Positions 2,442 through 61,572 of a DNA stretch of 64,000 nucleotides are shown piece by piece (within the stretch, counting starts at the first letter, position 1; every line of letters begins with the position of its first letter). The DNA is from Naegleria gruberi. Its lineage: Eukaryota. Position numbers and translations under genes: made by a program. The notes under the pieces were generated by a model. The model worked only from the letters and a program-made list of their open reading frames with translations. It made no database searches and was not told the DNA's origin. The DNA lies in assembly GCA_000004985.1 (NCBI GenBank), contig GG738870.1; one strand, 5' to 3'.

Positions 2442-2495
2442 AGGAAAGTGTATTAAGAAAACCATACCATTGATGCATCAATTATCTCAATATGA

Positions 2496-2566
2496 AGGGA
2501 GATAGTTCAGTGGTAGAACATGGGATTGTGGTTCCTAAGATCAGGGTTCGATTCCCTGTCTTCCTA
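2496..2566 (+). tRNA. tRNA-His (anticodon GTG)
   Basis: A cloverleaf can be folded by eye: acceptor AGGGAGA/TCTTCCT, D arm GTTC-AGTGGTA-GAAC, anticodon stem TGGGA/TCCTA with loop TTGTGGT (GTG), and T arm CAGGG-TTCGATT-CCCTG. The discriminator is A and there is no encoded G-1. An oligo-T Pol III terminator follows at 2571..2575. Confidence 0.8.
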
Positions 2567-3461
2567 CACCTTTTTAACAGCGTAATTTTGAATATGGTTG
2601 GTAAATAAGATTTGCTTGAATACTTAGTTGCGTCTAGACTACATTAACCACAAATTGTTTTTATTGGTCCAAAATCAAGTTTGACTAATCTTTATAATAA
2701 ATTCACAGATACTGTAACTCATTCCTATCTTGATTCTTCAGAATTAGTAAATATAGGTTCTCTCTTATTGTACTTTATATTAATTAGATTGTAAAATGAG
2801 ATAAAACAATTTTGCCAATTTTCTTTCTTCATTGACTAGGATTACTCGTCTGTTACGTTATTAATAAAATTTAGACCAATAACGGTTCCAAACTAATTAA
2901 CTATCTGAATACATGTTCCTTTTATCTGCATAGACCTATAGCCAATGAATATATCAAACAACTAACAAACGAAGACCTTAACATCTCCATTCTAATCCAA
3001 CTCAAATTGTTGAATGCTTCAAAAAAGAACAACTTGAAAAGATAACAGTAACAAAACAACTACTTGATGTTTAACCTTTTCATTGTAAAGTCTTTCATCA
3101 AACAACAAATAGATGTGAAAGTTGATAATCAACAATCAATACCTCACTTTTTTTTAAAATTCTTTAGTGGTGATTTTTTAAAATATCCAAAAATGAACCC
3201 GATTAACCGCTTGTGGCCTCTATCAAATTTTTTAGGCGCCATCTCGAACAAATAAGTCACTGACAAAGGAGGTTGTGCCATCAAATTCGCCTTATAAAGC
3301 TCTTATTAAGTTTGTTAGAATTTGTTGAGGTAAAATTTGATTCTTTAGTTTGATCCAAGAAGCTTGTTGAAGTACGTCCCCGTTGTTGTAATTCACTATA
3401 AAACGCTACTGGTTAGCTTCTAAAAAAAAGCACACAACAACAACAAATATAAACCTTAACA

Positions 3462-6183: not shown

Positions 6184-6384
6184 CAATAAAACTAACTCCG
6201 ACGGTAAACTGATTTTAACGTGTTACCTCTTGGAGTAATCCAATTATTCAATGATTTTCAAAGAACATAACACTTGAAAGTGTTGAAATTGGAATCAAAT
6301 GGCTCATCATACAACTGTGTTATTGTAAAGTATTACCACACAAAGAAGCTCTTCAATTTTGATATTTAATTTTTAATCAAAAAA

Positions 6385-7176: not shown

Positions 7177-7323
7177 ATTTTCATTTCAATTTCTCTTGAG
7201 AAATATGTGGCAGAAGTTACATAAAGATTGTCCTTATAATAAAAATCGAGTGGACAGAGAGAAGTGCCACACTTTGTGGTTAATGTAGTCTTGATCTTAT
7301 TTACCAAGCTGTCAAAAAAGGTG

Positions 7324-7394
7324 TAGGAAGACAGGGAATCGAACCCTGATCTTAGGAACCACAATCCCATGTTCTACCACTGAACTATCTCCCT
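7324..7394 (-). tRNA. tRNA-His (anticodon GTG), second identical copy in inverted orientation
   Basis: The reverse complement of 7324..7394 is base-for-base identical to the tRNA at 2496..2566. Immediate flanks are also similar (atgaaggg upstream, cacc plus T-run downstream). Confidence 0.8.
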
Positions 7395-7555
7395 TCATGT
7401 TATAGAGAATCCAAGCCAAGCATTGATGATAATAAAATAATGATTAAAAATAGATTCGAAAAAAATTATTCATACAAGACGAAGATCACATACAAAAAAT
7501 TACCGTCATCAAGATAATATTTAGGGCTGAATAATTATTAACTTAAATTTTAACA

Positions 7556-20217: not shown

Positions 20218-21885
20218 TTAATGTTTATTTTCTAATTTTTGTTCCAAAGCTTGAATTCTTTCTAAACAAAATTCAATCAATTGGTCTTGTCTTTGAATGG
20301 TTTCTTCCAAGTTTTCAACTTTCTTATTTAAAATTTTGATAATTTCAGAGTTGACAGCTGTGGAATTCTCAACATTAATTGTTTGATCCAAATGTTTTCT
20401 TTCAATTGAGTGAATAATATCTTCATCTTTAGCTAAATCTATTGGTGTTTTACCTTGAGCATTTTTCAATTGAATATTTGCACCAGCGTCAAGTAAAGCA
20501 GTTGTAATTTTCTTCTTGAAATCGAGTTCTTCATCTGTCGTTGCTGGTAGAACTGCAATATGAAGAGCAGAGTTGCCTTCTTTATCAACTGAGTTTACAA
20601 ATTCAGGAAACATTTTGACAATGAAATAAACAACTGATTCTCTCATATTTTCCACAGCAACATGTAGAGGTTGTCTATTCTTATTATCAACATTCTTTTC
20701 ATCAATATTAAGGGTAAACGGAGGATTTAACAACACTTTCAATAATTCTATCTGACCTCCAGCTGCAGCCCAATAAACACAAAATGATTTCTGAATATTA
20801 ATTCCCTTTGATTGGAAAAAAGAAACCATTTCCAAGTCTCCCAGATATGATGCAAGCGCTATAACATTCATGTTAACCTTTCCAAATTTCTTATGTTTGA
20901 ATTTTCTGTTCATATCAGCATTCTTGTTGATTAAGAAAAGAATCATTTCCTTTTGCTTATTCATGACAGCCTCACATAATGGGGTCCAGTTCTGATAATG
21001 AGTGGAGAAAAAACAAGCATCAATGTAAGCTCCTTTTTGCAACAGATAATTTACAAGTACAGATGAACCGTGGCGAACAGCAAGGTGAAGGGAAGTCTTT
21101 ATATTTGTTACTGAAATCAAAGAAACCAAAATACTTACTTCATGTTCACTCAATGGTTGTAAAATATCCACACCTAACATGTTCAATAATTTTAGATAAT
21201 CCAAATTACTATTAATGGCACATTTTATGACACAATTAAGGATCGTTTCTTTAAATTCTTTTGCAACAATCCAAGCATCAAAATTATCTGCCTTCTCAAT
21301 GGCATTAGCAACAAAGTATTCACTAATATAACTATCGTACAAAATATTAATACAATCATAAAGATTAGTGTGACAGACCATGTAGTGAAAAGGAGCTGTA
21401 ATCATGTTATCGTTAATGAACAATGAATAAAACATACTCAGTCCATTTGAATCTTTAAGCTTCAAAAACTCATCCAAAAATTTCAATTCTTTCATCTTCT
21501 CAAACACAAAGCTCCCGTTAGAAAAATCAAGGTCATTTGAACCTTTATGTTTGAAACCATATTGAATGGCCAAGTGAAGACAATTTCTATTCTCCAAACA
21601 AAGATGAGGTCCTTTTAATTGACTTGCATTGGAAGTTGTAAATAACAGTTTTAGTCTGGAAACGGAACCTTCTTTCAATGAAAACACAAACTCTTTCAAT
21701 ACATCCGATTCAAAAGTTTTTGATTTTATATCTTCCATTATGCTTGCATTCCTCTTTCTTCCTAATTCCTTTTCACTCTCGTCTTTGACATGAAGACCTT
21801 CATTCATCTTCATGATTGTATTTTTCCTTAATACACTTTGCCTCCTTGAAGGAGAAATAGGAAGCTGAGGTAATGGCTTGCTCAT
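20218..21885 (-). CDS. ankyrin-repeat protein with C-terminal coiled coil
   Basis: The 555-aa ORF has several ANK repeats (LHLAVRHGSSVLVNYLLQKGAYID; PLHVAVENMRESVVYFIVKMF; GNSALHIAV...LLDAGANIQLKNAQGKTPIDLA). The tail is a heptad coiled coil. Confidence 0.55.
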   Translation of the reverse strand: MSKPLPQLPISPSRRQSVLRKNTIMKMNEGLHVKDESEKELGRKRNASIMEDIKSKTFESDVLKEFVFSLKEGSVSRLKLLFTTSNASQLKGPHLCLENRNCLHLAIQYGFKHKGSNDLDFSNGSFVFEKMKELKFLDEFLKLKDSNGLSMFYSLFINDNMITAPFHYMVCHTNLYDCINILYDSYISEYFVANAIEKADNFDAWIVAKEFKETILNCVIKCAINSNLDYLKLLNMLGVDILQPLSEHEVSILVSLISVTNIKTSLHLAVRHGSSVLVNYLLQKGAYIDACFFSTHYQNWTPLCEAVMNKQKEMILFLINKNADMNRKFKHKKFGKVNMNVIALASYLGDLEMVSFFQSKGINIQKSFCVYWAAAGGQIELLKVLLNPPFTLNIDEKNVDNKNRQPLHVAVENMRESVVYFIVKMFPEFVNSVDKEGNSALHIAVLPATTDEELDFKKKITTALLDAGANIQLKNAQGKTPIDLAKDEDIIHSIERKHLDQTINVENSTAVNSEIIKILNKKVENLEETIQRQDQLIEFCLERIQALEQKLENKH

Positions 21886-21944
21886 TTTTTTAATAAGACA
21901 CTATGCTACTGGGATGTGTTATCATTACAGCAATATTAATAAAA

Positions 21945-22079
21945 ATGAATAGAGGATGTATGGATGTTAACAGTTTAGTAGTTGGAGGAGTACAGGATGT
22001 AAAAGACAATGTGGTCGGAGGATTCCACACTTTGAATAAGGCTACATCAATTTTGAAGAGAACACTTATCACCTGTTGA
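21945..22079 (+). pseudogene. partial paralogous copy of the GVQDVK-repeat first exon of the gene at 26296
   Basis: Region 21913..22070 is about 85% identical to 26254..26460, including the upstream ...ttacagcaa[t/c]attaataaaaATGaatagagga. It encodes MNRGCMDVNSLVVGGVQDVKDNVVGGFHTLNKATSILKRTLITC and then stops, with two repeat units against three in the parent. It lies in the intergenic spacer between the ankyrin gene and the EGF gene. Confidence 0.45.
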
Positions 22080-22499
22080 TCATTCAATCCTTTGAATATG
22101 TTTACTTTTCCATTGACAGAATTTCACATTATTTGTAGATTTGAATTCAGCTTCTTCCTCCTGTTTTTCAGTTAGTAGTTTTACATTAATTTATAATTCA
22201 TTCTTTGTATTTGTTTACACAAGAGAATAGTTAATAATAAGAATAGACAAAAGATTCTTGAATGTCCAAGTTTTTACAATGATAAAATGGCCAAACACAA
22301 CCCTAACTACCGATAGAAATAAAAAATCAATCTCATTCATGACGGTTGAAATATGAGAATGACAGTTTACAATGATTTTGAAACTAAAATGATTGGATGA
22401 TCATAGACTTATTGTATTGACGTAGAGAATTCACAACCCATACAAACTCTTAAAAGTGTTTGGTCTAAGAGAAAGAAAGGTATTAAAAAAAACATAACA

Positions 22500-23783
22500 A
22501 TGAAAGTTTCAAATTTATTATTCATTTGTCTATTCCTATTCACTTTTGCTTACAAGTTGACTGTTGCCTCTAGCACTTCCAACATGCTACAACCAGTCAA
22601 TTTATTTCAGAAGAGAACATCTCAAGCAGTGTGCACATGTCCTAGATGTCCAGACAAAATTAACATCAACAATTTCTTGTTCTCAACTGAGGTGAATTGT
22701 CCCACCAAGTGTCCCACAGGCTATTACGTCAATGGAATGGATCTCTTGATTTCACCATTTAATGACTACCATACCTACATTATTGAAACTACATCCACTG
22801 ACACTTCAAACAAAATTAATGACTTGTCAAAAGATCAAACCAGATACAATCTTGGAGATTGTTTCAGTGCCTCTACTTCCTTAAATCTTGATACCACTGA
22901 TTACACTACCAAGATTACATGTAAGAATGCCATTACTCAATGCTCAGTTCAAGTGAAAAATGTTTGTTTTTGCTCCAAATCCCCTTCAAAATTGGTTATT
23001 ATTGCTCCTTCTCTTGTTGTGACTGGATCTAAATACACACCTGAAGTAAGAATTGTTGACAATGATGGAAATATAGTTCCAAGAAACTATCTCATTGAAT
23101 TCATTTCACCTGGTCAATCCTATACTTCTATGGCATCAAATGGTATCATGAAAGTTAATGAACTTATTGCCCCAAGCTCTGGTACTGTTACATTAAGAGC
23201 TTCTATCAGTTCTCTTTCAGGTTCTGCTCCTTCATTGACTTCTGCTGAGTTTACTGTCACTGTCACTCAATCCTTATTCACATGTTATGGTGCTTCACCT
23301 TCCAACAGTTCTGTTTGTAGTGGTAAAGGAACATGTACTGCTCAAGATGTTTGCTCATGTTTCACAGGATACAGTGGTAGTAAATGTGAAACATTCTCCT
23401 CAACCACTCAAGTTTCCAGCATTAAACTCTCAGTTCCCTCCACTGTGAATAGTGGTTCTCAATTTACTGCAACTGTTTCAATGTTGGATTCAAGTGGAAG
23501 TACCATGAAATCAGGTTCAGGAACTATCACTTTGGATATTGTTGGTGCATCTTCTGATGTTACAATGGTTGGTGATAAGTCCAAAGTGGCAGGTGAAGGT
23601 GTTGCTTCATTCTCTGTTCAATTGTCAACATTGACATCAACTTCGATCTCTCTAAAGGCGAACTATCAAACACTTTCAGATACCAAATCAGTTAATGTGG
23701 ATATATCCAGGACATCTCAATGTGCTGCCATTTGGAGTTATCTTTTCACAATAACCTTTTTTGTAATTTTATTTATTATCTAA
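22500..23783 (+). CDS. secreted Cys-rich/EGF-domain surface protein, probably GPI-anchored
   Basis: The N-terminus is a signal peptide (MKVSNLLFICLFLFTFAYKLTVASS). An EGF-like module follows (CYGASPSNSSVCSGKGTCTAQDVCSCFTGYSGSKCE), then S/T-rich repeats. The C-terminus is a hydrophobic tail (CAAIWSYLFTITFFVILFII) consistent with a GPI signal. Confidence 0.55.
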   Translation: MKVSNLLFICLFLFTFAYKLTVASSTSNMLQPVNLFQKRTSQAVCTCPRCPDKININNFLFSTEVNCPTKCPTGYYVNGMDLLISPFNDYHTYIIETTSTDTSNKINDLSKDQTRYNLGDCFSASTSLNLDTTDYTTKITCKNAITQCSVQVKNVCFCSKSPSKLVIIAPSLVVTGSKYTPEVRIVDNDGNIVPRNYLIEFISPGQSYTSMASNGIMKVNELIAPSSGTVTLRASISSLSGSAPSLTSAEFTVTVTQSLFTCYGASPSNSSVCSGKGTCTAQDVCSCFTGYSGSKCETFSSTTQVSSIKLSVPSTVNSGSQFTATVSMLDSSGSTMKSGSGTITLDIVGASSDVTMVGDKSKVAGEGVASFSVQLSTLTSTSISLKANYQTLSDTKSVNVDISRTSQCAAIWSYLFTITFFVILFII

Positions 23784-23838
23784 TAATAATAATATTGCAT
23801 TAAATAAATTTAATATTACAAAATTTAATTATTATAAA

Positions 23839-24177
23839 TGGATCAAGACTTCATTGACTCAAGTTATTTCTCAAATGATCTGACAAAGTCTAATAACATC
23901 AAGTCATGTATTAGAATAGTGTTCAAGTAGGTAATACCAGTAGTATTTTACGTGAATTTTATCATGAGCTTCCAAAGAAACATTCTAAGGGAGGTCAATC
24001 TCTTGAAAGATTTGCTAGAAATAGAGAAATTGCCAAGAATGAATATCTAAAGATTATTGCAGAGAAGGCAAATTCTTTATTCGTATCGCCAACTTTGAAT
24101 GCTCCAACTGTAGATGCTATTATTCTTGCTGGATGTGCTGAATTGAAGAATGAATTACTTTCTCTCAAATCTGATTG
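23839..24177 (+). pseudogene. eRF1 (peptide chain release factor subunit 1) domain-2 fragment with retained GGQ motif; frameshifted and truncated
   Basis: The frame open from 23915 gives VGNTSSILREFYHELPKKHSKGGQSLERFARNREIAKNEYLKIIAEKANSLFVS...AIILAGCAELKNELLSLKSD. This is colinear with eRF1 [33 protein letters not shown]...GLILAGSADFKTDLAKSELFD. An upstream ATG at 23839 opens a 30-codon +1-shifted frame (MDQDFIDSS...IRIVFK*) that may correspond to the preceding eRF1 segment. There is no N-terminal domain and no domain 3. It is far more diverged than a functional eRF1 should be. Confidence 0.5.
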
Positions 24178-24217
24178 TTTGGTAATAGTAAAATAGTAAA
24201 AAGTAACTAAGAGTGAT

Positions 24218-25313
24218 TTAGGTCAATTTGAACATGCCTTGAATTGCCTTGGCAGAGTAAGCTTCTTCCAAACTCTTCTTTTCTTCATCGGTTAATTGAA
24301 TTTCCAATGCTTGCACATTGAGTTCAATATTTACAGCTTTAGTGGCGCCAACAATTGGACAAGCAACACCTGGCTTGGAAAGCAACCAAGCAAGTGCAAT
24401 TTGAGCAGGTGGTACATTTCTCTTCTTTGCAATTTCTGAAACTCTTCTCAATGTTTCTTTATCACCCTCTGTTAAATTTTCCTTAAATATATTTTGGAAA
24501 TAATCAGAGGTAGCTCTCTTGGAATCAATTGCTTGTTCAGCATTGACAAATTCATGAGCACGAGCGAGCATTCCATTGGAAAGAGGTCCCCATGGAGTGA
24601 GAGAAACATGTTGGTCAACACATAATGGATTCATTTCTCTTTCTTCTTCTCTATAGATGAGATTGTGGAGATTTTGCATGGAAATGAATTTGGTCAATCC
24701 CTTCTTCTCAGCATAGTGTTGAGCTTTAGCAAATTGCCAAGCAAACATTGTGGAAGCACCAATGTATCTGACCTTTCCAGACTTGACTAAATCATGGAGT
24801 GTTTCCATAGTTTCTTCAATTGGAGTATTTTCATCCCAACGATGGATAATGTACAAATCAATGTCTATTCAATCAATCATTATTAATCAAATGAAATATT
24901 TCAGTAAACTTACAATCGAGACCTAATCTTTGCAATGAATCTTCAACTGCATGCATAATGTGCTTTCTGGAGAGACCAAAAGTGTTTGGTTTCAACTTGC
25001 TAAAGTCCATTACCATAGATTGTTCACCACTTCTGTCCACTGGAGCACAAACTTTGGTAGCCACAACAATTTCCTCTCTTGAAATGTTGAATTTCTTAAT
25101 GAAATTTCCTAAAATTCTTTCACTTTCTCCATTACTATAAACATTGGCAGTATCGAAAAAGTTAATTCCCAAATCCCATGCCTTCTTCAAAATGATCATT
25201 GATTCCTCTTCATTCAATACCCAAGGCATCCACTTGGAAGATCCAAAACTCATACAACCCAAACAAAGTTGAGAAACCTTCAAACCACTATTACCCAAAT
25301 TGACGTATTTCAT
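24218..25313 (-). CDS. aldo-keto reductase family protein, 2 exons (25313..24914, 24864..24218)
   Basis: Exon 1 gives MKYVNLGNSGLKVSQLCLGCMSFG...LQRLGLD. A GTAAGT donor and a gaatAG acceptor flank a 49-nt intron. Exon 2 begins YIDLYIIHRWDENTPIEETM..., matching the AKR consensus L.Y.DLY..H. Later AKR blocks follow (GKVRYIGAS; IALAWLLSKPGVACPIVGATK). Total length is 1047 nt, or 349 codons. Confidence 0.75.
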
Positions 25314-25426
25314 TGTTTCTTTAATATTTTTTCTCTATCAAACTATGAAGCTTATTCAATAAGAATTGAATTTGTTTTTTTTGTTTTTGAAATTGTTCTT
25401 CTTTATTGCCAGCGAATTTAAGTAGG

Positions 25427-25528
25427 AAAATTTGTGCTCATATTTTCGCGAGCAGATTAATGTTTTGATGGTTTTGGATGGATATGATGATTTAAAATTG
25501 TGCTCACATTTTCACGAGCAGATTAATG
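25427..25528. repeat. imperfect 35-bp direct repeat (two copies, 67-bp period) upstream of tRNA-Met
   Basis: Copy 1 at 25427..25462 is aaaatttgtgctcatattttcgcgagcagattaatg. Copy 2 at 25494..25528 is aaaattgtgctcacattttcacgagcagattaatg. There are two mismatches and one indel. Each copy contains TTTTCGCG / TTTTCACG, an E2F-like half-site. Confidence 0.6.
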
Positions 25529-25675
25529 ACTGTAGACATTTAAAAAAAGTGAATTCTTTTTGTAAATTGGTACAAGGTCAATCTGGTTTTGGATGTTATG
25601 TAATTCCTTTTGTAAGCACTCAAGCACTCACTTTGGACTTCAACAAGCATTCATACTTTTGGCTAATAATGTATC

Positions 25676-25748
25676 GGGGTCATGGCGCAGTCGGTAGCGC
25701 GTAGGTCTCATAATCCTAAGGTCGTGAGTTCGATCCTCACTGACCCCA
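25676..25748 (+). tRNA. elongator tRNA-Met (anticodon CAT)
   Basis: The fold has acceptor GGGGTCA/TGACCCC, D arm GCGC-AGTCGGTA-GCGC, anticodon loop CTCATAA (CAT) and T arm GTGAG-TTCGATC-CTCAC. The GCGCGT...GTCTCATAATC...AAGGTCGTGAGTTCGATCCTCAC core matches eukaryotic elongator tRNA-Met. A T5 terminator follows. Confidence 0.8.
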
Positions 25749-25890
25749 ACTTTTTGCTTTCAATTAGTCATATTTAAGAACCCTTATTGAACTTTCCACG
25801 AAGAGGATTCTGGAACAACAAGGTGGAAATAGTATTAGATTTTTAAATTTATGCCTTCAAGATTGGTTTCAACATCATCTGTTAAATCTG

Positions 25891-26106
25891 TTAAACCACA
25901 AAAGAAAGATAAAAACAAAGCCAGTAAATCCTGTGAGAAAGAAGCTCAAAACCAATAATGCCAAACTTCATACCAGCCCACAACAAAGCTAAAATCCAAA
26001 TCCCACAACCAGCGAAAATAGTGCCTGAGCACGTGGTGATATTAGCCAACTCCAGAATTCGGTATTTTATTATAGAATAGAAACAGAAATATGAAGGAAT
26101 TTTCAA
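25891..26106 (-). other. unassigned 71-codon hydrophobic ORF between tRNA-Met and the Vps51-like gene (possible small membrane protein or spurious)
   Basis: The ORF reads MKIPSYFCFYSII...GTIFAGCGIWILALLWAGMKFGIIGFELL. It has two hydrophobic helices but no homology signal and atypical codon usage. Confidence 0.2.
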
Positions 26107-26295
26107 ATTAATGTTGCTAAATGGCTTTTAGGCTGTATTAAGACAGATGTTAAGAATTTGAGAATGAAAGTTGGTGCCCTGTTACAAGGTGCTCAGTCGT
26201 CTTTTAACAGACATTATCAATGGCTTGTTCTGTTTTTTAACGATAAAACATCTATGCTTCTTGGACGTGTTATTATTACAGCAACATTAATAAAA

Positions 26296-28680
26296 ATGAA
26301 TAGAGGATTTATAACGGAAGGTGTACAGGATGTTAAAGGTTTAGTGGTCGGTGGTGTTCAGGATGTTAAAGGCTTAGTAGTTGGAGGAGTACAGGATGTA
26401 AAGGACAAGGTGGTTGGAGGATTCCACACTTTGAATAAGGCTACATCAATATTGAGGAGAAAAATTATTAGTGATGTTGGAAATGCTAAGGAACTAAATA
26501 AGAAGGTGATCAGTTATTTTACAGGAAAAGAGAGTAGGTTGATGAAGAATATTATTTAATAATTAATAATTATAAATAATATTTTAAATAGAGGCTCTTG
26601 AACATCCTTCAACAATTAATTTTGCATCAGATGAATTTGATCCTGAGGATTGTAGGTTATCATCAATGTTTAATAATTCTGATTTTTAGATACTGATACC
26701 TTATTCACAAAATCCGATTACAAACAAATTGAAAGCAATTGGCTTGCAGGATTATCTATTGAACAAACAAAAGCAAAGGAAAAATTACAAGAATTAGTTT
26801 CAGATAATTATATACAATTCATTGATGCTTCAAAAGAGGTTTCAAGTTTTATGGATGTTGATTTGATTGAAATTGGTAATCTTGTAACTTCTATGAAAAA
26901 TGTTATTTCAGACATTGACTCAGTTGATTTGACTTTGGATTATAGATGTTTGTACCCAACTTTTAAAAGTGTTGATGTTGAGGCTTTAAGAGAAGTTGAA
27001 TATACAATGCTACCAGAATTGGAAATGATAATTTCTCAAAGACTATTTCACAAAGCAGCAGAATTGGTTGAATTAATAGATAAAAAACTAGTGTTGGAAG
27101 ATGATATCAAAATGGAAAAAGACTACAGAGCGTCACTTCAACAATTGAAAAAGAAATTCTACCAAAAAAGAATTGAACTCAGTGAATCTGTTTCTGAGTC
27201 GGTCAAAAGTGGCCTTTCCAGTAATAAGGATGTTAAATTATTGGAAAAAATTTCAGGAACAGAGATTGCTATTACAACTTATCTAAAAGGAAAAAAGGTT
27301 AGAATTAAGAATATTCTTACAAAGATAGAATGCAGAGGAAATGTTGAGGACTACACAAAAACAGCCTCCAAACATGTTTTCAAGATGATTGAAGTAGTTT
27401 GTGCGGAGTTTAGAGAGTTATTTACTGATGATACAAATACCTCTTTTTTTATTCAGTGGTCATTTGAGGTGTTAGAAAAATTAGTCTCCACTGTCAAAGT
27501 TCAAATATTAGGTCAACAATGTTTTGAAACCACATCTAACAGTATCAATGTTATCATTAAGAAGGCTCAACAGTTAGAAAAGATGGGTATCACAGTATCT
27601 TTCTACATACATAAACTGTTGTTACCTGATGTTGAGAAAACAATGAGACAACGATGTATTGAATTAAGAGAGGAGATATTTAGAATAGCTTGTTCTGAAT
27701 TATGGAATTACAAAAATGTTCCCTGCGATTTATTTGCTGTTGCCCTTCCAGATGTTGTAAAGCAATTGAAGGTGGGGCAAAGTTGCCTTGTATTTGTGAA
27801 TAGTATTCGTACTTTTATTATTAATTGTAGTTTAATAGTTTCCTCATATGTAAGTAATCACATACCAATATCTTACACCGTCAAGTCTTTCAATATTGTA
27901 AATATGTGTGTCACAGAACTCTTTGAGACTACCTTATCAAAATATTATGAGATTGGTTTGTCAAAAACCATTAGTGAGAAACAATTCTTTGTAATTTTAT
28001 CAAGTTCAAGGTTTATCTTACAAGGAATGTTGGAGGAGGTTTCAGAGATGTTAAAGGTTTGTTCTTGTAAACATATTTTCTCTTTAACATTTGATTAGTT
28101 ATTATTTGATAAGAATTTACCAGTAGAAATTACAATTCTTAAATCTAAAATATTTGGTTTTGATTCAAGATTGTTAGAGAAATATTGTGAGAACAAAGCT
28201 TTCAATTTAGTAGATGAAAAAATAGGATGGAATCACAGCTACATTGCTCAAGAAATATCATCTGTAACGAGTGTCAGCAAATTCTTTGCTCAGGTCATCT
28301 CATACTTTGATAAATTATCGAATCATATAGCTTCATCTTTTGACAAGGATTCTATCCCAATAATGAGGCTTTTCATTAAATATACGGTAGAATATCTTAC
28401 TGACAAGAGTAATGCAATGACAAGCATGATTGAGGATACAAAAGAATCAGCAAAGAAACATAAGGTTAATCAGATTATTCTTGATCTGAGCTACTTTAAA
28501 CAACAATTATCAAGCAGAGATTTTATTTCAGAGGAAGTAAGTATTGTTTTAATCATAATTATTTACCCATGATAGGATGAGGATACGATTATATCATATA
28601 TTGATTTCATAAGAGATTTAAACCATGGATCAGAGAGTGTGCTCTCTAATCGAGCAATTGAAGAGATACTTAATAAATAA
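26296..28680 (+). CDS. Vps51/Dor1-type vesicle-tethering complex subunit (GARP/exocyst/COG family) with an N-terminal GVQDVK-repeat exon; 5 exons (26296..26533, 26592..26651, 26690..28056, 28099..28536, 28576..28680). An alternative in-frame start lies at 26158.
   Basis: All donors and acceptors are phase-consistent (GTAGGT at 26534 and 26652, GTTTGT at 28057, GTAAGT at 28537). The joined product reads ...FTGKE|KALEHPSTINFASDEFDPED|YTDTLFTKSDYKQIESNWLAGLSIEQTKAKEKLQELVSDNYIQFIDASKEVSSFMDVDL.... This parallels the Vps51 N-terminus FDPEVYLDKL....LVYENYNKFISATDTIRKM. Total length is 2208 nt, or 736 codons. Exon 1 encodes MNRGFITE(GVQDVKGLVVG)x3... Confidence 0.5.
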
Positions 28681-28751
28681 ACTTTGCCGCCAATTTCTCC
28701 CGCTTTTTGTTGGCGTTTTTCAGTACAACAATAAAAATCAATATCAAAAAA

Positions 28752-30815
28752 ATGCACTCAAGTTACTTCCTCAATCACAAGTCATCTAGGCCTAAGAATG
28801 ATGATACGGAAGAAGATGAAGACATTATTGTTGAATTATCAACAAAAAAAGACCAAAGAAAAGTTATCTTAACTGGGTCTAAGGAAGAAATAAATACATC
28901 TGAAGATGAAGTTGAAGAAGGATATTTATCGGATAGCTTAAAAGAGGTTGACTATCATAACTTGGAAGAACCATCTTTCATTGAAAATTCGGATGAAGAA
29001 GATATGGATCTCATAACGATACAATCACTAAGGGAATCTCATCAGCAAAAATTAGACCAAGTGGAACGAGAATACCTCTCTCTTAGAGAAAAGAACAATA
29101 TGTCAGTTGATGTGCATAAAACAAGAAATGTTCGGATTAAAAACCCAATGAATTCATACAGAACAGTCACATTTAGTGACCAATTTGATGAGGAGCCAAG
29201 AAACTCTCCTAAATCTGACACTGAAGAAAGGGATTTCTCTCAAGTAAACAGAAGAGTATCTGAGATCATCAGTGAGGTCAGTTTGGACGACGATAATACC
29301 AGTGTCAGTTCTGATGACACTGAGTTCAAACAAGATTACAAACACTATTTCAATGACCCAAGTTTACATAATCAATTGATTGATGAAGAGTCAGTAGAAC
29401 GAGACTATAACTATAATGATATTAGTGACACTTGTACAGTGATTTCGGATGTGTCAGAATTTGTAAAGGAAAGAGATGCCGAGGGACCAACAGAAAACAT
29501 CGAACGTAAAAACATCACTGTGCCTCTTCCATTCAAATTTGAGGACAGAGAGGCCAGAAAGCCTTTGGGCATTCATAGAAGGAAGATGGATGACTATATC
29601 AATAAGATTAAAATGGAAGAAGAACATCATCTCAACAAAAGATTCAAAGCAAATCCAGTTCCAAAATCAACAAAGACTCCTTTATATGAATCTGTAAGAA
29701 TAAGGACTGAATTACAGACAAAGCTGGAGAGAAAGGCTCTTGAGGAAATGACTAAAAAAATAATTAAGCCATTTTATTTTGCTGAGAGAGACGAAAGGAG
29801 GTCCAAACAATTAGAAGAAGAGAAAATACTAAAACAAGAGGAGCATTATATGAGATTTGAAAAAGGATTTGTGGCTAATCCAGGTTTGTTTCAAATTTTC
29901 CTATATTCTTACATCCAAAGTTCCCTCACATACTTTCAGACATATTTATACTATAAAACAAGAAAGAGAATCACAAAGGAGAAGTGAAAGAGTTCAAGAA
30001 AGATCCCAACGACTTCTTCGCCAATCCTCTCTCCCTCCTAGAATGGAAATGTGGAATAAGGTCGGAAAATCACAAGCTATATGTAAGTAATACTCCCTTT
30101 GAGATCCAATTTCTAAAATATGTAGCAAACCCATTAGAAAACGATTTAACATTACATCCAAAAATCAATCATAACGTTCCTGTAAGTATTAGGATAAATT
30201 TTATTCTAACAAGATCAGGACTTTGACCATCTTCACCGAAAATTCCAAGAAACTCTGTATCTTGCAAAGAGAACTCAAAAGCTAACAGTTCCACAACCAT
30301 TCAAGTTCAATAGTACGTTAACTGAAAAAGATATGAAGAGAATTGCAGATGAGGTAGGATTAGATGATGTGGTTCTTCACGATTCAAGGTCAGACTGGGA
30401 AAAACAAGATTTCAAGGCAAAAATTTCAAAACGACCATCATCTGCAACCCAAAGCAGGCCTCAAAAGGATACCTTTGCAACTAGAATGAGAAATGAACAA
30501 ATTAAAAAACAAATAGCTGAAAGAGAGGAAAGGAAAAAGGAATTGGAAACATTGAGAGGAAAGCAATTCAATCAACAACGAAAGATTTTCAACAGAGTGG
30601 CGCCAAATATTGACAAACAAGAAAACAAAGAGAATTTTTATGCCACTCTTTCGAATACTCAAAAAAGGAGAGAGAAAGATGCTCTCATTGATGCAAAACC
30701 CTATCTTTTCGAAACCTCTTTGAAGAAGGAAGCTAAGGAGAAAGTCTATGAGGATCTGAAGAAAACTCTTTCAGAAAATGGAACAGCCTATTTATTATCC
30801 TCTCTTAAATTGTAA
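28752..30815 (+). CDS. TPX2-like microtubule-associated protein, 3 exons (28752..29883, 29921..30082, 30214..30815)
   Basis: The ATG at 28752 has an aaaaaaATG context. TPX2-family motifs recur: KRFKANPVPKSTKTPLYESVRIR, GFVANP|VPSHTFRH (spanning a 37-nt GTTTGT..AG intron) and TVPQPFKFNSTLTEKDMKR. Compare human FKARPLN / PKFKALPLPHF / TVPVSPKF. The second intron is GTAAGT..acaAG, 131 nt. The protein is acidic and S-rich with a coiled-coil C-terminus. Total length is 1896 nt, or 632 codons. Confidence 0.5.
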
Positions 30816-55978: not shown

Positions 55979-56327
55979 TTGTTTGGTGAAATAGTACATA
56001 TTTAATTATTAATAAATATAATATTATACTATAAATAGACTAACCGTAATTGTATTTAACAATGTATTGTACAGTAAAGTTTCAAATTTATTAAGGGGTG
56101 GTTGATAAATTAATTGATGGTTCAATATTTGTTCATGATGATACATGTAGTTGTGGTTGTTAACATGTTCTTAATAGTGAGTGCACTGAACCAATGTTAA
56201 GAGATTGATTGTTATTTAATTGTTATATACTCTCGTTGTTGTGTGAGAGGAGTATTTGAACTTGGTGGTAGTTACTATTAAGATTAAGAATAATCATCAT
56301 CTTGTTCATCTTCATCTCTTTAAAAAA

Positions 56328-58564
56328 ATGAATGATCATCACAATGATGAAAACTCTAAGGAAAATATAGATTATATAAAACAATCTAATGATGATCAAT
56401 CCTTATATCTATTAAATACTACCATTACTATCACTACTACAACTTCTAATAATAATAATAATAATAATACTATTAATAATACTTTTGAAAATAATAATGA
56501 AAGAATACAAGATGAAGATGAATTATCACTTCATTTAGGACAAGAACATTTAAATAATAACACAATTACATATGATGAAGCTATTAATGAGTTAGGATTT
56601 GGTTTATTTCAAATTTTATTAATGCAAGTTTGTGGTGCTGGTTGTTTGGTAAGTTTTTATATATTAAATAAATTATTTAAGTAATATTAAATTATTTAAC
56701 ATTACAATATTTAATATATTATTGTAATAGTTTGATGGTATTGAATTATCTTTAATTTCATTTGTAATTCCAGGTATTAAACAACAATGGAATTTAAATG
56801 CTATTGAAACAGGTGCATTAGGAAGTATTGTATTTTTTGGAATGATGTTTGGTGCTTGGTTTGGAGGTTTTTTAAGTGACAAATTTGGAAGAAAATTAGT
56901 TTTTTGTAGTTCCATTTTTATTTCTTCTGTATTTTTATTAGCAAGTTGTTTTTCTGTTCATTTAGGAATGTTAATTACTTTAAGATTTTTTGTAGGTGTT
57001 GGTTTAGGTGCAATGGGTATGTTTTTATTTATACTTTCTATATTTAGTATTAATAATTTTATATTAAAAAATATAATTTAATAACAATTAATTTAAAAAT
57101 AATAATTTAATATTTAAAATAGTACCATGTGATTTTTCATTAATGTTAGAATTTTTACCATCTAAAAATAGAGGTGCCTTATTAGGATTATTACAAATAT
57201 ATTGGAGTGTAGGAGCAGCACTTGAATGTTTAATTTCCTATTTATGTATTGAAGTAATTTCTAAACAATTTGAAAAAGGAAATCTATTAAATGATGGATG
57301 GAGATGGTGCATGTTTTTTTCTTCCATATTTGGATTTTTAATTTTCTTTTTAAGATTATTTGTTCCAGAATCTCCAAGATTTTATTTAATTAAAAGAAAT
57401 TTTGAAAAAGTTGATCAAGTAATTGAAAAAATTTCAAAATTAAATAGAAAATCTTTAAATGATAAAAAAGTAAGATTAGCAACAACTACTAGAACACAAT
57501 CTTCAATGAAATTATTTTCCAAATCAAGAGATTTCCAAATTGAGATGACACATCAAGAAGAATTTAAATCTTTAACTATTTTTAATCAATTTAAAATGTT
57601 ATTTTCAAAGGAATTTTTATTTTCAACAATATTATTATTTATTATTTGGTTCATGTTAAGTTATGGTGGTTGGGGTTTTAATTGTATGTTTTAATATTAA
57701 TTTATTAATTTTATTTAATTTAATTTTATTTTAATTTTATTTAAATTTTATTTAATTTAATTTTTTAATATTTTTAAAATAGTTTTAATTCCAATTGTAT
57801 TTGAAAAAATTCAACATAATAATGTATATTTAAATTCCTTTTATGTAACAAGTGTTGGATTTATATCGAATATATTAACATTATTTATTATAGATAAAAT
57901 GTCAAGAAGAACACTTATGGGAATAACATTTATATTTACAGGAATATTTACAGCCTTAGTAGGAGTATCAAATAATCCATATTCAGTTTTAACATTTTCA
58001 ATGTTAGCAAATTTCATGTCTTCATTTCCATGGGCATTATTATATACTTATACTCCTGAATTTTATCCAACTTCAATTAGAACAACTGGAATGGGTGCAT
58101 GTTCTGTTTTTACTAGATTAGCAGGTGCAATTACTCCAATGTTTGGTACTTTGGTTTTAGAATCTGGTTATTTCATTCCTTTTTTAACTTATGGAATTGC
58201 TTTAATCATTGCTGGTATTTGTTCTTTTTTATTAAGAAAGGAAACTTTAAATTCTACTTTACAAGATGTTTCAATTCATCAAAAATCAAAAGAAGAATAT
58301 TTTTATTCTGAATTATCTTTAAATGAACCTATTTTAAATGATTTAATTCAACAAGATGATAATAATACTAATAATACTAATAATAATAATAATATGGAGG
58401 AGGATGACAACATGGATGAACAGAGTCAACAAACAAGTCATAACATTAATAATAATAACAACAGCATGTTATTTGAAAGAAATGTTTCTATTGCTACTGA
58501 GCCATCAATGAAACAAGATGAAATTGATTCAAATGATTATGTTATTGCTTCAAATAAATTCTAG
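56328..58564 (+). CDS. MFS transporter (SV2/SVOP / SLC22-like), 4 exons (56328..56648, 56731..57016, 57123..57683, 57783..58564)
   Basis: An N-rich cytosolic N-terminus precedes 12 TM-like segments. MFS motifs are present (GFLSDKFGRKLVF; LRFFVGVGLGAMG; PEFYPTSIRTTGMGACSVFTRLAGAITP). The donors are GTAAGT, GTATGT and GTATGT, and the acceptors are atAG, aatAG and aatAG. Total length is 1950 nt, or 650 codons. Confidence 0.7.
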
Positions 58565-58730
58565 TTTCATTCAGCTTTTCAAACATTGTATTTCAATTAA
58601 ATTTCAATTAAATTTCAATTTTATTTTTTTAATAAGGAAGTAAACAAGTAATTTAATATTGTCATACAAGAGCCTTTCTTTTAAATTTACAATATGCTTA
58701 GAGTTTTTTGACCAATGTAGTCAAAAATAA

Positions 58731-59681
58731 TTAAAAAGTACCAGACATGTTAACAGAACCACCGAATAGAACTGAACGTGTAGGGAATGATTTAGTACCA
58801 CAACTCATTGGTTTGAAAATTGGTTTCTTTTGTTCCTTTTCATCCTTTTTAGATAAAGTTCTCTTATCATATGGATCTTCAATATAAGCAGGGAAATCAC
58901 TTCTTTGTTTAACAGGAGATGGATAGAATGGTTTTCTCTTATCTTCATTTTCCTTCTTTGGTGAAGAAGATTCCTTTTCTAATGCCTTTTTAATTGTTGC
59001 TTCAACTTTATCATCTGTACCTAAAATTCTAGGAGCAGCAACAGATTTATGAGTATCAAAATAATCTAAATGATGTGATGATGAAATAAAAGCCTTCTTT
59101 GCAACTTGTTTAGCCTTTTCATTTTCCTTTTCCTTTTTCTTTTCCATTGAATGATCAAATGGATCAGTTTCGTATTTGTATTCTGTACCTCTTGAAATTG
59201 TTAAACCTAAATATCCAAATGTACCTCTTTTAGGTGGAGATGTATAAATTGGTCTCTTTTGTTCCTTAATTGGTTGTGGTTTTTCACCCTTAGCTAAAAC
59301 TTCATATTCTTGTTCATGTTGAAAAACAGAACCAATTGTACCATAATATGTTCCCAAGCCTACTGATTTCTTTGGAGGTGATGATGGTTTAAATGGTGTC
59401 TTGTGTGTTTGTTGTACTTTAACCTCATTTTCCTTTCTATACTTTCTTTCATTGGTTCCTGGATCCATATAAGGATCACCTTCATAAAGTGATTTAAAGT
59501 CTCCAAATGTAATTCCTTTACCAACTTTACCTCTCTTTGTTGGTCCAGTTAAAAATTGTTTACCAAGTGTTCTACCATCTTTCATTCGTTGGTCTCTTAA
59601 TATTTTACTCTTATCATATTCATCACCAATTGTTGTATATCCTAAATCAACTGGTTCGTTAACGTTTGGTTTGTTACTCAT
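58731..59681 (-). CDS. hypothetical basic repeat protein, possibly a CFAP96/C4orf47 (DUF4586)-like ciliary protein
   Basis: The ATG at 59681 gives MSNKPN.... The track ORF starts at an upstream GTG. Modules of the form P.K+G..G...F.....DP(Y/F)D recur (GKQFLTGPTKRGKVGKGITFGDF...GDPYMDP; IYTSPPKRGTFGYLG...ETDPFDH; KPFYPSPVKQRSDFPAYIEDPYDKR). The family assignment is tentative. Confidence 0.4.
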   Translation of the reverse strand: MSNKPNVNEPVDLGYTTIGDEYDKSKILRDQRMKDGRTLGKQFLTGPTKRGKVGKGITFGDFKSLYEGDPYMDPGTNERKYRKENEVKVQQTHKTPFKPSSPPKKSVGLGTYYGTIGSVFQHEQEYEVLAKGEKPQPIKEQKRPIYTSPPKRGTFGYLGLTISRGTEYKYETDPFDHSMEKKKEKENEKAKQVAKKAFISSSHHLDYFDTHKSVAAPRILGTDDKVEATIKKALEKESSSPKKENEDKRKPFYPSPVKQRSDFPAYIEDPYDKRTLSKKDEKEQKKPIFKPMSCGTKSFPTRSVLFGGSVNMSGTF

Positions 59682-60381
59682 CTTATTGTTATTTTTATGA
59701 TTGTCGTCGTAATATTGTAGTAAATTTACAGTCACCGTTAGAGCGGTAAGGTTTTATATAAATACACTCTCTGAGGGTGTTGTGTTGTTGAGGTATTTTT
59801 TTTAAGATTGGTTTTTAAAACGTAACTGTAGATTTTTTATTCTCTCCCTCAGAGTTCGTTAATAACTGAAAAACTTTACAAGACGTAACGGCAAGTGTCG
59901 ATAAATTTCATCATTTCTCTCTCTCGTACATTTTCAATCAGCAGCAATTAATAATATTTGATGATTGCTGCTACAATCAGTTGATGATTTTAAATATAAT
60001 ATAATATTAAGGAGGATTGATGCTTAATAATAATAATCATGATTCTTAAAGGAACAATATTAATTGAATATATATTAATCAAATAGTGTAACGGTAACAC
60101 GTAAATTTCAAATGTTGATTTGGCGCTAAATTTCAAATCCATCAATGGTCATCAAATTTACTTCTAATTTGAATTTCTAAATATTAAATCAATTATTCAA
60201 AATATAAATATGAAGGAAATCCTTCAAAATATTTAAAGGGAGTTAAATATTTTACACTCTCTTGAACAAAATAACATTCAATTAAAATAATAATATTTAA
60301 AATTAAATTCATTTTAATATTTTACAATTTACTATATTACACAATCAATAATCATTTAAAATAATCATTTAAAATAATAAT

Positions 60382-60592
60382 NNNNNNNNNNNNNNNNNNN
60401 NNNNNNNNNNNNNNNNNNNNNNNNNNNNNNNNNNNNNNNNNNNNNNNNNNNNNNNNNNNNNNNNNNNNNNNNNNNNNNNNNNNNNNNNNNNNNNNNNNNN
60501 NNNNNNNNNNNNNNNNNNNNNNNNNNNNNNNNNNNNNNNNNNNNNNNNNNNNNNNNNNNNNNNNNNNNNNNNNNNNNNNNNNNNNNNNNNNN
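60382..60592. other. assembly gap (211 N)
   Basis: A run of n interrupts the 3' part of the Ras-like CDS. A 16-bp direct repeat (aatcatttaaaataat x2) abuts the left gap edge at 60346..60381. Confidence 0.95.
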
Positions 60593-61209: not shown

Positions 61210-61572
61210 TTTTTTAATTGTTGTTTTAATTGATGATGGAACATGTCGCAAAGATCTTGTTAAATGTCATCGAGACAGGATATGAACTTGTGAAGTTTGT
61301 TCAAATACTTAGAATGAACACAAGCACCTCAACTATTTGAACATATTATTACATGTAGAGAAATTGGTTCCATGTTCATTAGTTTTTTGCAAGTCAATAA
61401 ACTGTTGAATATTTGGAAGAGTATTAATAAGGTATGTAATGAAGAGATGTATTGTAGCAGGAATTTTCACATTATTGTAAATGAATTGGTCTCTTAATTC
61501 CTTTATTGAGTACGGAATAATAAGAACTGAAGAAGGCTCCACACTCACTATAACAACATGACCGTATAACTA

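What the first reader, a model, noticed from the sequence alone, without database searches (positions are those of the whole stretch)
26158..26651. An ORF that the six-frame track lists separately (33-nt GVQDVK tandem repeat) appears to be the spliced first exon of a Vps51/Dor1-type tethering-complex gene
ORF 26158..26559 looks like an independent small gene. It encodes MNRGFITE followed by three 11-aa units (GVQDVKGLVVG) produced by a perfect 33-nt tandem repeat at roughly 26330..26428. But a GTAGGT donor at 26534 and an aaatAG acceptor ending at 26591 join it in phase to KALEHPSTINFASDEFDPED. A second GTAGGT intron then leads to YTDTLF...LVSDNYIQFIDASKEV, the hallmark Vps51/Dor1 N-terminal region. 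All five exons sum to 2208 nt, an in-frame 736 codons. A Gly/Val repeat module grafted in front of a conserved tethering subunit is unusual. The repeat number differs in the paralogous fragment (2 units against 3), so the repeat is VNTR-like.
Basis: seen in the sequence. Interest (0 to 1): 0.5.

Follow-up and report, generated by a model that had tools for sequence, protein, structure and literature searches.

The report
First exon of Naegleria Exo84 gene
The small repeat-containing ORF is not a gene of its own but the first exon of the amoeba Naegleria gruberi's Exo84 gene, an exocyst vesicle-tethering subunit. That gene appears to be missing from the species' published protein set and carries a short N-terminal repeat extension shared with related amoebae.

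Summary
The window is Naegleria gruberi: two ORFs match its annotated proteins exactly.

- **Core reading holds.**
- **Gene identity.** The joined protein is Exo84, an exocyst subunit. Pfam gives Exo84_C at 65 bits and VPS51_Exo84_N at 29 bits. It is not Vps51 or Dor1.
- **Evidence for splicing.** The same exon 1, 60-nt exon 2, exon 3 layout, with both introns in phase 1 at the same positions, occurs in N. fowleri and in a third, metagenomic relative. One N. fowleri model (CAG4715816.1, 735 aa) is built this way. Exon 1 is under purifying selection (pN 0.21, pS 0.77). The ORF tail after the donor is not conserved.
- **Corrections.**
  - The start ATG is at 26296.
  - The 33-nt repeat is not perfect: units are 82% and 70% identical, and most differences are synonymous.
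  - A sixth exon exists, because a conserved in-frame 36-nt intron (27850..27885) was missed. The protein is 723 aa, not 735.
- **The paralogous fragment.** 21872..22069 is a relic of exon 1 at the gene's ancestral position, next to an ankyrin gene.
- **Open point.** No PH domain was detected. The function of the conserved N-terminal module is unknown.

This is a sound annotation fix of ordinary biology.

The parts
26158..26295 (+). Upstream part of the ORF. It is open in frame but is most likely non-coding leader or promoter sequence. 26219..26295 is the duplicated ancestral ankyrin-start plus intergenic sequence.
   Evidence: N. fowleri and the third species have in-frame stops 6 and 15 nt upstream of their homologous ATG. 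Homology to the relic copy starts at 26219.
26296..26533 (+). Exon 1 of Exo84 (238 nt, 79 codons plus 1 nt, ends in phase 1). It encodes MNRGFITE, three 11-aa units, and a conserved basic stretch, GGFHTLNKATSILRRKIISDVGNAKELNKKVISYFTGKE.
   Evidence: 65% amino-acid identity to N. fowleri exon 1, with pN 0.21 against pS 0.77. The donor sits at the same codon position in three species.
26320..26418 (+). Three 33-nt units encoding GVQDVKGLVVG, GVQDVKGLVVG and GVQDVKDKVVG.
   Evidence: Tandem Repeats Finder: period 33, 78-83% matches. Units differ at 6 and 10 nt with only 1 and 2 amino-acid changes. N. gruberi exon 1 is exactly 33 nt longer than N. fowleri exon 1.
26534..26591 (+). Intron 1 (58 nt, GTAGGT...TAG, phase 1). 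It contains the non-conserved ORF tail SRLMKNII and the TAA stop.
   Evidence: The tail is SK* in N. fowleri and SKLKSGETNDGA* in the third species. Intron identity is at background level, about 55%.
26592..26651 (+). Exon 2 (60 nt), encoding (K)ALEHPSTINFASDEFDPED. It is the start of the Vps51/Exo84 N-terminal domain.
   Evidence: A conserved 60-nt exon in N. fowleri (L001 6256..6315) and a 57-nt exon in L003 (994..1050) have canonical splice sites. The Pfam score drops from 29.3 to 21.5 bits without it.
26652..26689 (+). Intron 2 (38 nt, GTAGGT...TAG, phase 1).
   Evidence: Same position in N. fowleri and L003.
26690..27849 (+). Exon 3 (1160 nt). It holds the rest of VPS51_Exo84_N (aa 91-176), Exo84_C (aa 207-400) and helical body.
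   Evidence: Pfam. Its length is identical to N. fowleri exon 3.
27850..27885 (+). Intron 3 (36 nt, GTAAGT...AAG, phase 0).
   Evidence: It corresponds exactly to the 12-aa gap against N. fowleri. N. fowleri has a 45-nt intron at the same SSY|SF position.
27886..28056 (+). Exon 4 (171 nt).
   Evidence: Same length as in N. fowleri.
28057..28098 (+). Intron 4 (42 nt, GTTTGT...TAG).
   Evidence: This acceptor choice gives LLFDKNLP, which aligns with N. fowleri LLFNQNSP.
28099..28536 (+). Exon 5 (438 nt).
28537..28575 (+). Intron 5 (39 nt, GTAAGT...TAG).
   Evidence: Same position as the last N. fowleri intron.
28576..28680 (+). Exon 6 (105 nt including the TAA stop).
21872..22069 (+). Truncated relic copy of the ankyrin-start, intergenic region and 5' part of Exo84 exon 1. 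It holds ORF 21903..22079 and encodes MNRGCMDVNSLVVGGVQDVKDNVVGGFHTLNKATSIL.
   Evidence: 71% identity across the alignment including gaps, with few mismatches in the ungapped blocks and 15 + 33 nt missing in the coding part. No other Exo84-like sequence is in the window.
20218..21885 (-). Ankyrin-repeat gene NAEGRDRAFT_68103. It is the ancestral divergent neighbour of Exo84.
   Evidence: Exact protein match. Pfam ankyrin domains. Its ortholog (44% identity, E = 1.7e-119) lies directly upstream of Exo84 in the metagenome relative.
22070..26218 (.). 4.15-kb block between the two direct copies. It holds an EGF-like gene (NAEGRDRAFT_79923), an aldo/keto reductase gene on the minus strand, and tRNA-Met.
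28752..29984 (+). First long ORF of the downstream FAM161A/B-family gene, which is a syntenic neighbour.
   Evidence: Pfam FAM161A_B, E = 2.4e-18. The same neighbour follows Exo84 in N. fowleri.

Best explanation
Positions 26296..28680 (+) are the six-exon Exo84 gene of Naegleria gruberi, encoding a 723-aa exocyst subunit. ORF 26158..26559 is made of three parts: a non-coding leader that happens to be open in frame, exon 1, and the start of intron 1.

**Shown**
- Exon 1 is joined through two short phase-1 introns and a 60-nt exon 2 to the Vps51/Exo84 N-terminal helix domain and the Exo84_C helical body.
- Exon 1 encodes a lineage-specific N-terminal extension of about 79 aa, maintained by purifying selection. 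It has two or three 11-residue GVQDVKxLVxG units followed by a conserved basic segment.

**Inferred**
- The protein acts as the Exo84 subunit of the exocyst in tethering vesicles to the plasma membrane.
- Its extension forms an amphipathic helix with 11-residue periodicity. That helix either extends the N-terminal assembly helix or contacts acidic membrane. The second role would be one that the PH domain serves in yeast and animal Exo84. No PH domain was detected here.
- The fragment at 21872..22069 is the remnant left at the gene's ancestral position beside the ankyrin gene. A 4.15-kb block came to lie between two copies of the shared 5' region.
For: **Identity of the gene**
- Pfam Exo84_C scores 65 bits against a cut-off of 32. 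VPS51_Exo84_N scores 29.3 bits against 24.2.
- The best homolog is N. fowleri FDP41_013256, which UniRef names an Exo84 C-terminal domain protein. It shows 49% identity over 98% of the query.
- The downstream neighbour is FAM161 in both species.

**Splicing**
- All five intron positions and phases are shared with N. fowleri. Exon lengths are 60/60, 1160/1160 and 171/171.
- A third species (L002/L003) has the same first three exons.
- N. fowleri model CAG4715816.1 (735 aa) joins exons 1, 2 and 3 in the same way.

**Coding constraint**
- Exon 1 has pN 0.21 against pS 0.77. Exon 2 has pN 0.17. The whole gene has pN 0.31.
- Differences between repeat units are mostly synonymous.
- Introns and the ORF tail after the donor are not conserved.
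- Exons 2 and 3 have no in-frame ATG upstream of the conserved domain region; the first, at 26851, lies inside it. The downstream part therefore cannot start on its own.

**Start codon**
- Both other species have in-frame stops just upstream of the homologous ATG.

**Helix inference**
- The AlphaFold2 model is all-helical with no strands, and residues 3-65 form one helix, but confidence is low (pLDDT 49).
- The hydrophobic moment is 0.3-0.4, and net charge is +3 to +4 in the second half of the extension.

**Relic**
-.
Against: - No transcript data could be consulted, so every junction rests on comparative evidence.
- One N. fowleri model, KAF0980773.1, skips exon 2. Skipping keeps the frame, so exon 2 could be alternatively spliced.
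- The structure model has too little confidence to establish either the helix or the absence of a PH domain.
- Nothing tests the proposed role of the N-terminal module. It has no significant match in Pfam or the PDB.
- In-frame ATGs at 26164 and 26254 would lengthen the protein if transcription starts far enough upstream.
Confidence: 0.9

Rival explanations
1. ORF 26158..26559 is an independent small gene. It would encode a repeat peptide of 87-131 aa that ends at its own TAA, and Exo84 would be transcribed separately.
For: The ORF is uninterrupted and ends in a stop codon inside AT-rich sequence. ORF-style gene calling on N. fowleri and metagenome contigs also reports it as a 68-70 aa protein.
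Against: The residues after the donor differ in every species: SRLMKNII*, SK* and SKLKSGETNDGA*. Conservation stops exactly at a conserved GT donor in the same phase. Exons 2 and 3 have no in-frame ATG upstream of the conserved domain. An N. fowleri model joins the exons.
Confidence: 0.03
2. The gene is as described, but exon 2 (26592..26651) is a cassette exon. Two isoforms would then be made, of 723 and 703 aa, with and without the first part of the Vps51/Exo84 N-terminal domain.
For: Both flanking introns are in phase 1, so skipping keeps the frame: 'a'+'at' gives N, as in N. fowleri GREN|TDTLF. N. fowleri has one annotated model of each kind.
Against: Exon 2 is about 70% identical at the protein level across species, with pN 0.17. 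It completes the Pfam domain. The skipping model may simply be a gene-prediction miss of a 60-nt exon.
Confidence: 0.15
3. Translation starts upstream, at ATG 26254 (MLLGRVIITATLIK...) or ATG 26164. This would add a hydrophobic N-terminal extension of 14 or 44 residues.
For: The frame is open from 26158, and these ATGs are in frame. The relic copy also keeps MLLGCVIITAILIK in frame.
Against: The two other species have in-frame stops 6 and 15 nt upstream of the homologous ATG, and their proteins begin at MSK. 26219..26295 corresponds to the ancestral ankyrin-Exo84 intergenic region plus the ankyrin start. The sequence before 26296 is A-rich (ataaaaATG), as in the other species.
Confidence: 0.08
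4. The gene is a Vps51 (GARP) or Dor1/COG8 (COG) subunit.
For: The N-terminal domain matches the Pfam family shared by Vps51, Exo84 and COG1.
Against: The body matches Exo84_C at 65 bits. No Dor1 family appears at E up to 1, and COG2_N reaches only a weak 12.4 bits, below its cut-off. UniRef names the N. fowleri homolog an Exo84 C-terminal domain protein.
Confidence: 0.03

Closest known systems
Exo84 / EXOC8, exocyst complex subunit (Pfam PF08700 + PF16528)
   Same: It has the N-terminal Vps51/Exo84 helix domain followed by the Exo84_C helical bundle, both above Pfam's curated cut-offs. It is orthologous and syntenic to the N. fowleri protein that UniRef names an Exo84 C-terminal domain protein.
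   Different: No PH domain was detected. Only about 30 residues separate the two Pfam domains, there is no PH hit at E up to 1, and the low-confidence model is all-helical. It also has a 68-79 aa N-terminal extension with 11-residue repeats, found so far only in Naegleria and one related metagenomic organism. It has no significant sequence match to any solved Exo84 structure.
N. fowleri gene models CAG4715816.1 (735 aa) and KAF0980773.1 / FDP41_013256 (715 aa)
   Same: Same exon-intron layout, and the same N-terminal GVQDVK module fused to Exo84.
   Different: N. fowleri has two repeat units, not three, so its exon 1 is 33 nt shorter. KAF0980773.1 omits the conserved exon 2. The C-terminal exons differ in length: 438 against 447 nt, and 105 against 165 nt.
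Vps51 (GARP) and Dor1/COG8 or COG1 (COG) tethering subunits
   Same: They share the N-terminal helix domain family PF08700. From general knowledge, they also share the all-helical CATCHR-type build.
   Different: The body domain is Exo84_C. No Dor1 family matched, and COG2_N gave only a sub-threshold hit.
Amphipathic 11-residue-repeat helices (alpha-synuclein KTKEGV repeats, perilipins and apolipoproteins, group 3 LEA proteins)
   Same: It shares the 11-residue period. On an 11/3 helix the hydrophobic residues (V2, V5, L8, V/F9) fall on one face, with a lysine at the boundary. That projection is my own calculation by hand, supported by the moment values. The Gly/Val-rich composition is also similar. 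Alpha-synuclein repeats appear among sub-threshold PDB hits at E 0.5-10.
   Different: There is no significant sequence similarity. Only 2-3 units are present. Lipid binding is untested. This is a resemblance, not membership.

Membership tests
Exo84 (exocyst subunit) | Exo84_C helical domain (PF16528) above Pfam's gathering score | tested here: met
   65.0 bits against a cut-off of 32, E = 1.1e-17, residues 207-400 covering profile positions 7-202 of 205.
Exo84 (exocyst subunit) | N-terminal Vps51/Exo84/COG1 helix domain (PF08700) | tested here: met
   29.3 bits against a cut-off of 24.2, residues 91-176. This holds only when exon 2 is included; without it the score is 21.5 bits.
Exo84 (exocyst subunit) | PH domain between the N-terminal helix and the C-terminal bundle, as in yeast Exo84 (PMC6784791) | tested here: not met
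   No PH family at E up to 1. Only about 30 residues separate the two domains. The AlphaFold2 model has no strands, but its pLDDT is 49. To my knowledge the PH domain is not treated as obligatory for the family, so I still file this as an Exo84 ortholog of atypical architecture.
Exo84 (exocyst subunit) | Orthology to a recognised Exo84 (best hit plus conserved gene neighbourhood) | tested here: met
   N. fowleri FDP41_013256 was the only hit in both searches with the full protein or its profile. FAM161 lies downstream in both species. All intron positions are shared.
Exo84 (exocyst subunit) | Assembly into the exocyst octamer | not testable with these tools
   Needs co-purification or a multimer structure prediction.
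Vps51 (GARP) / Dor1-COG8 (COG) | Family-specific body domain, such as Pfam Dor1, rather than only the shared N-terminal helix | tested here: not met
   Only the shared PF08700 domain matched. The body is Exo84_C. COG2_N scored 12.4 bits, below its cut-off of 24.3.
VNTR / minisatellite | Near-identical tandem units | tested here: not met
   Units are 82% and 70% identical at the DNA level, and most differences are synonymous.
VNTR / minisatellite | Copy number polymorphic between individuals or strains | not testable with these tools
   Only one N. gruberi sequence was available. Between species and copies the unit number does differ: 3, 2, about 1.5, and 1-2 degenerate units.
Membrane-binding 11-mer amphipathic helix (synuclein or perilipin type) | Significant sequence or profile similarity to a known 11-mer repeat family | tested here: not met
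   No Pfam hit. PDB alpha-synuclein hits reach only E 0.5-10.
Membrane-binding 11-mer amphipathic helix (synuclein or perilipin type) | Amphipathic helix with 11/3 periodicity | tested here: inconclusive
   Hydrophobic moment is 0.27-0.43 at 98 degrees per residue. A helix is predicted only at low confidence.

The most novel reading that the evidence does not exclude
Heterolobosean Exo84 may have no PH domain and carry in its place a lineage-specific N-terminal module. That module combines 11-residue amphipathic repeats with a conserved basic helix, and would bind acidic or curved membrane, or a partner GTPase. It would take over the membrane-contact role of the PH domain, and the number of repeat units would tune the strength of binding.
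Probability: 0.2. Interest if true: 0.45.

Novelty: new member of a known kind. Interest (0 to 1): 0.25.

Why it matters
- **Filling a gap.** Two database searches with the full protein or its profile returned no N. gruberi protein for this locus. Earlier comparative genomics failed to find Exo84 in excavates (Koumandou et al. 2007, as reported in PMC6784791). A verified six-exon model fills that gap in the exocyst inventory of a reference free-living amoeba.
- **Correcting a pathogen's annotation.** It also shows that the N. fowleri RefSeq model drops a conserved 60-nt exon.
- **A lead for trafficking biology.** The conserved N-terminal repeat extension, in an Exo84 with no detectable PH domain, is a modest, testable lead on how divergent exocysts contact membranes.
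- **Otherwise ordinary.** An ORF list read with bacterial rules split a eukaryotic gene at its first intron.

Tried and rejected
- **Word-index protein search with the 79-aa exon-1 peptide.** Nothing scored at E up to 10. The exhaustive HMMER search then found the two true relatives. Its other hits were unrelated repeat proteins, and I rejected them after reading the ten I fetched.
- **Profile search with an alignment of the three species.** It found only the same N. fowleri cluster again.
- **Two metagenome scans for more orthologs.** Neither confirmed any locus.
- **Looking up the N. gruberi contig by exact protein.** It is not on record, so the official gene calls at this locus could not be listed.
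- **Structure prediction of the spliced N. gruberi protein.** I used the N. fowleri protein with window exon fragments as the alignment instead. The result had pLDDT 48.7, too low for a fold search, so none was run.
- **PDB sequence searches.** There was no significant hit for the whole protein or for the N-terminal module.
- **Literature.** I found no statement on whether N. gruberi Exo84 had been identified. The supplementary table of PMC6784791 is not held.
- **Rfam scan of 21000..29500.** It found only tRNA-Met.
- **Other acceptors for intron 4 (28113, 28123).** I rejected them because only 28098 gives the LLFDKNLP alignment with N. fowleri.
Full report
**Source and setting.** The window has 30.5% G+C and short GT..AG introns. 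Two intron-free ORFs are exact matches to Naegleria gruberi proteins. ORF 20221..21885 (-) is NAEGRDRAFT_68103, and ORF 22500..23780 (+) is NAEGRDRAFT_79923. The window is therefore N. gruberi nuclear DNA.

**Checking the observation.**
- ORF 26158..26559 (+) exists, at 133 aa counted from a bacterial-style TTG start.
- It contains MNRGFITE followed by GVQDVKGLVVG, GVQDVKGLVVG and GVQDVKDKVVG.
- The DNA repeat is real but not perfect. Tandem Repeats Finder reports period 33 with 78-83% matches.
- Unit 1 differs from unit 2 at 6 of 33 nt with one amino-acid change. Unit 2 differs from unit 3 at 10 of 33 nt with two changes.
- Under random mutation, so few amino-acid changes would occur with P = 0.004 and P = 0.0003. 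The peptide is therefore under selection in this frame, and the units are old.
- The units lie at 26320..26418, and the ATG of MNRGF is at 26296.

**What the gene is.**
- The joined protein matches Pfam Exo84_C (65 bits, cut-off 32, residues 207-400) and VPS51_Exo84_N (29.3 bits, cut-off 24.2, residues 91-176).
- It is therefore Exo84, a subunit of the exocyst tethering complex. It is not Vps51 or Dor1.
- The only database relative found with the full protein or its profile was N. fowleri FDP41_013256. UniRef names it an Exo84 C-terminal domain protein. It is 49% identical over 98% of the query.
- No N. gruberi protein turned up in those searches, so the gene appears to be absent from that species' deposited protein set.
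- An earlier comparative study failed to find Exo84 in excavates, according to PMC6784791.

**Evidence that the ORF is exon 1.**
- The N. fowleri protein begins MSKELIAEGVQDVKELFAEGVQDVKDKFVGGINMMNKATNMLKKKIKSEVGIAKEVNKKVISIFTGRE. This is the same module, with two units, fused to Exo84.
- In N. fowleri DNA (L001), exon 1 ends at a|GTAAGT in the same phase.
- Inside what model KAF0980773.1 treats as a single intron lies a 60-nt exon with canonical splice sites. It encodes (K)TLEHPSTINFSDDDFYPEE, the counterpart of window exon 2.
- The exhaustive search with the 79-aa exon-1 peptide found two true relatives. One was the N. fowleri exon-1 ORF. The other was a 68-aa ORF on metagenome contigs.
- On those contigs (L002, L003) the same layout recurs. 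Exon 1 ends at GGKE a|GTAAGT. A 38-nt intron follows, then a 57-nt exon 2 encoding (K)QLDHPSSINFGEDFDPEE, a 39-nt intron, and exon 3 starting YTDNLF.
- Across the three species, the residues after the donor differ completely: SRLMKNII*, SK* and SKLKSGETNDGA*.
- Exon 2 has no in-frame ATG, and the first in-frame ATG of exon 3 (26851) lies inside the conserved domain. The downstream part therefore cannot be translated on its own.
- Between N. gruberi and N. fowleri, exon 1 has pN 0.21 against a saturated pS of 0.77. Exon 2 has pN 0.17, and the whole gene has pN 0.31. Introns are at background identity of about 55-65%.
- Removing exon 2 lowers the VPS51_Exo84_N score from 29.3 to 21.5 bits, which is below the cut-off. 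The match then covers only profile positions 28-85, not 2-85.

**Correction of the gene model.**
- The BLAST alignment showed a 12-residue insertion in N. gruberi, VSNHIPISYTVK.
- Its DNA is GTAAGT...AAG, 36 nt long, in frame and free of stops (27850..27885).
- N. fowleri has a 45-nt intron at exactly this SSY|SF position.
- The corrected model has six exons: 26296..26533, 26592..26651, 26690..27849, 27886..28056, 28099..28536 and 28576..28680. That gives 2172 nt and 723 aa.
- All five intron positions are shared with N. fowleri. Exons 2, 3 and 4 have identical lengths in the two species.
- Exon 1 differs by exactly 33 nt, which is one repeat unit.
- By nucleotide distance, N. gruberi unit 3 corresponds to N. 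fowleri unit 2. The extra unit is a duplicate of the first type.

**Start codon.** The other two species have in-frame stops 6 and 15 nt upstream of the homologous ATG. The stretch 26158..26295 of the ORF is therefore most likely non-coding, and translation starts at 26296 in the context ataaaaATG. The in-frame ATGs at 26164 and 26254 remain a minor alternative.

**The paralogous fragment.**
- 26219..26468 aligns with 21872..22069. There are few mismatches in the ungapped blocks, and the fragment lacks 15 + 33 nt of the coding part.
- It covers the first 14 nt of the minus-strand ankyrin gene (ATG at 21885), the intergenic region, and the 5' part of exon 1. Homology then ends, and no other Exo84-like sequence is in the window.
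- In the metagenome relative, the ortholog of this ankyrin gene (44% identity, E = 1.7e-119) lies directly upstream of Exo84 on the opposite strand.
- I infer that ankyrin and Exo84 were ancestral divergent neighbours.
- In N. gruberi, a 4.15-kb block (22070..26218) now lies between two copies of their shared 5' region. The block holds an EGF-like gene, an aldo/keto reductase gene and tRNA-Met.
- Each gene kept one copy of that shared region. The copy next to the ankyrin gene decayed into the relic.
- Downstream synteny with a FAM161-family gene is kept between N. gruberi and N. fowleri.

**How it probably works.**
- Shown: the gene encodes a divergent Exo84 whose N-terminal 79 residues are conserved and translated.
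- Inferred from the established role of Exo84: it is one of eight exocyst subunits. It assembles through its N-terminal helix and helps to tether secretory vesicles at the plasma membrane. These roles are summarised in PMC6784791, which also notes PH lipid-interaction domains in Sec3 and Exo84.
- Here, no PH domain is detectable. Only about 30 residues separate the two Pfam domains, and no PH family matches at E up to 1.
- A low-confidence AlphaFold2 model of the N. fowleri protein is entirely helical (pLDDT 48.7).
- The extension is predicted as one long helix, again at low confidence.
- On an 11/3 helix, V2, V5, L8 and V/F9 of each unit fall on one face, with K6 at the boundary. This projection is my own hand calculation.
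- Hydrophobic moments are 0.27-0.43, and the second half of the extension carries a net charge of +3 to +4.
- I therefore propose an amphipathic helix that either lengthens the assembly helix or contacts acidic membrane. This proposal is untested.
- Its only similarity to known 11-residue repeat proteins is periodicity and composition. Alpha-synuclein appears only at E 0.5-10, and there is no Pfam match.

**Verdict.** The family label, the exon count, the 'perfect' repeat and the coordinates need correcting. The biology is ordinary: a eukaryotic gene was split by an ORF list read with bacterial rules. Three modest points of value remain:
- an apparently unannotated N. gruberi Exo84;
- a dropped exon in the N. 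fowleri RefSeq model;
- a lineage-specific N-terminal repeat extension on an Exo84 with no detectable PH domain.

Noticed in passing
window 2489..2575 and 7315..7401: Two tRNA-His(GTG) genes, at 2496..2567 (+) and 7323..7394 (-), lie in an 87-nt inverted repeat. The arms are 99% complementary and 4739 nt apart.
   Followed up: partly
window 56000..64000: G+C falls to 15-22%, and the region has dense AT-rich tandem repeats, unlike the rest of the window at about 32%. What this region is remains undetermined.
   Followed up: no
window 21872..26468: A 4.15-kb block holding three genes is flanked by direct copies of 200-250 bp. Each copy contains the ankyrin start, the intergenic region and the 5' part of Exo84 exon 1. 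It looks like an insertion or rearrangement at a shared divergent 5' region that left both genes with a copy of it. The mechanism is not resolved.
   Followed up: partly
L001 6206..6374 (N. fowleri VFQX01000017.1): The N. fowleri model KAF0980773.1 / XP_044565486.1 (FDP41_013256, 715 aa) treats this stretch as one intron and skips a conserved 60-nt exon at 6256..6315. Model CAG4715816.1 (735 aa) includes it.
   Followed up: yes
window 24218..25313 (-): An aldo/keto reductase gene is split into two ORFs, 24873..25313 and 24218..24856, presumably by a short intron. tRNA-Met(CAT) lies at 25676..25748 (+), between it and Exo84.
   Followed up: no
window 25891..26106 (-): A 71-aa hydrophobic ORF with no Pfam match sits in the 548-bp gap between tRNA-Met and the Exo84 start. 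Whether it is coding was not assessed.
   Followed up: no
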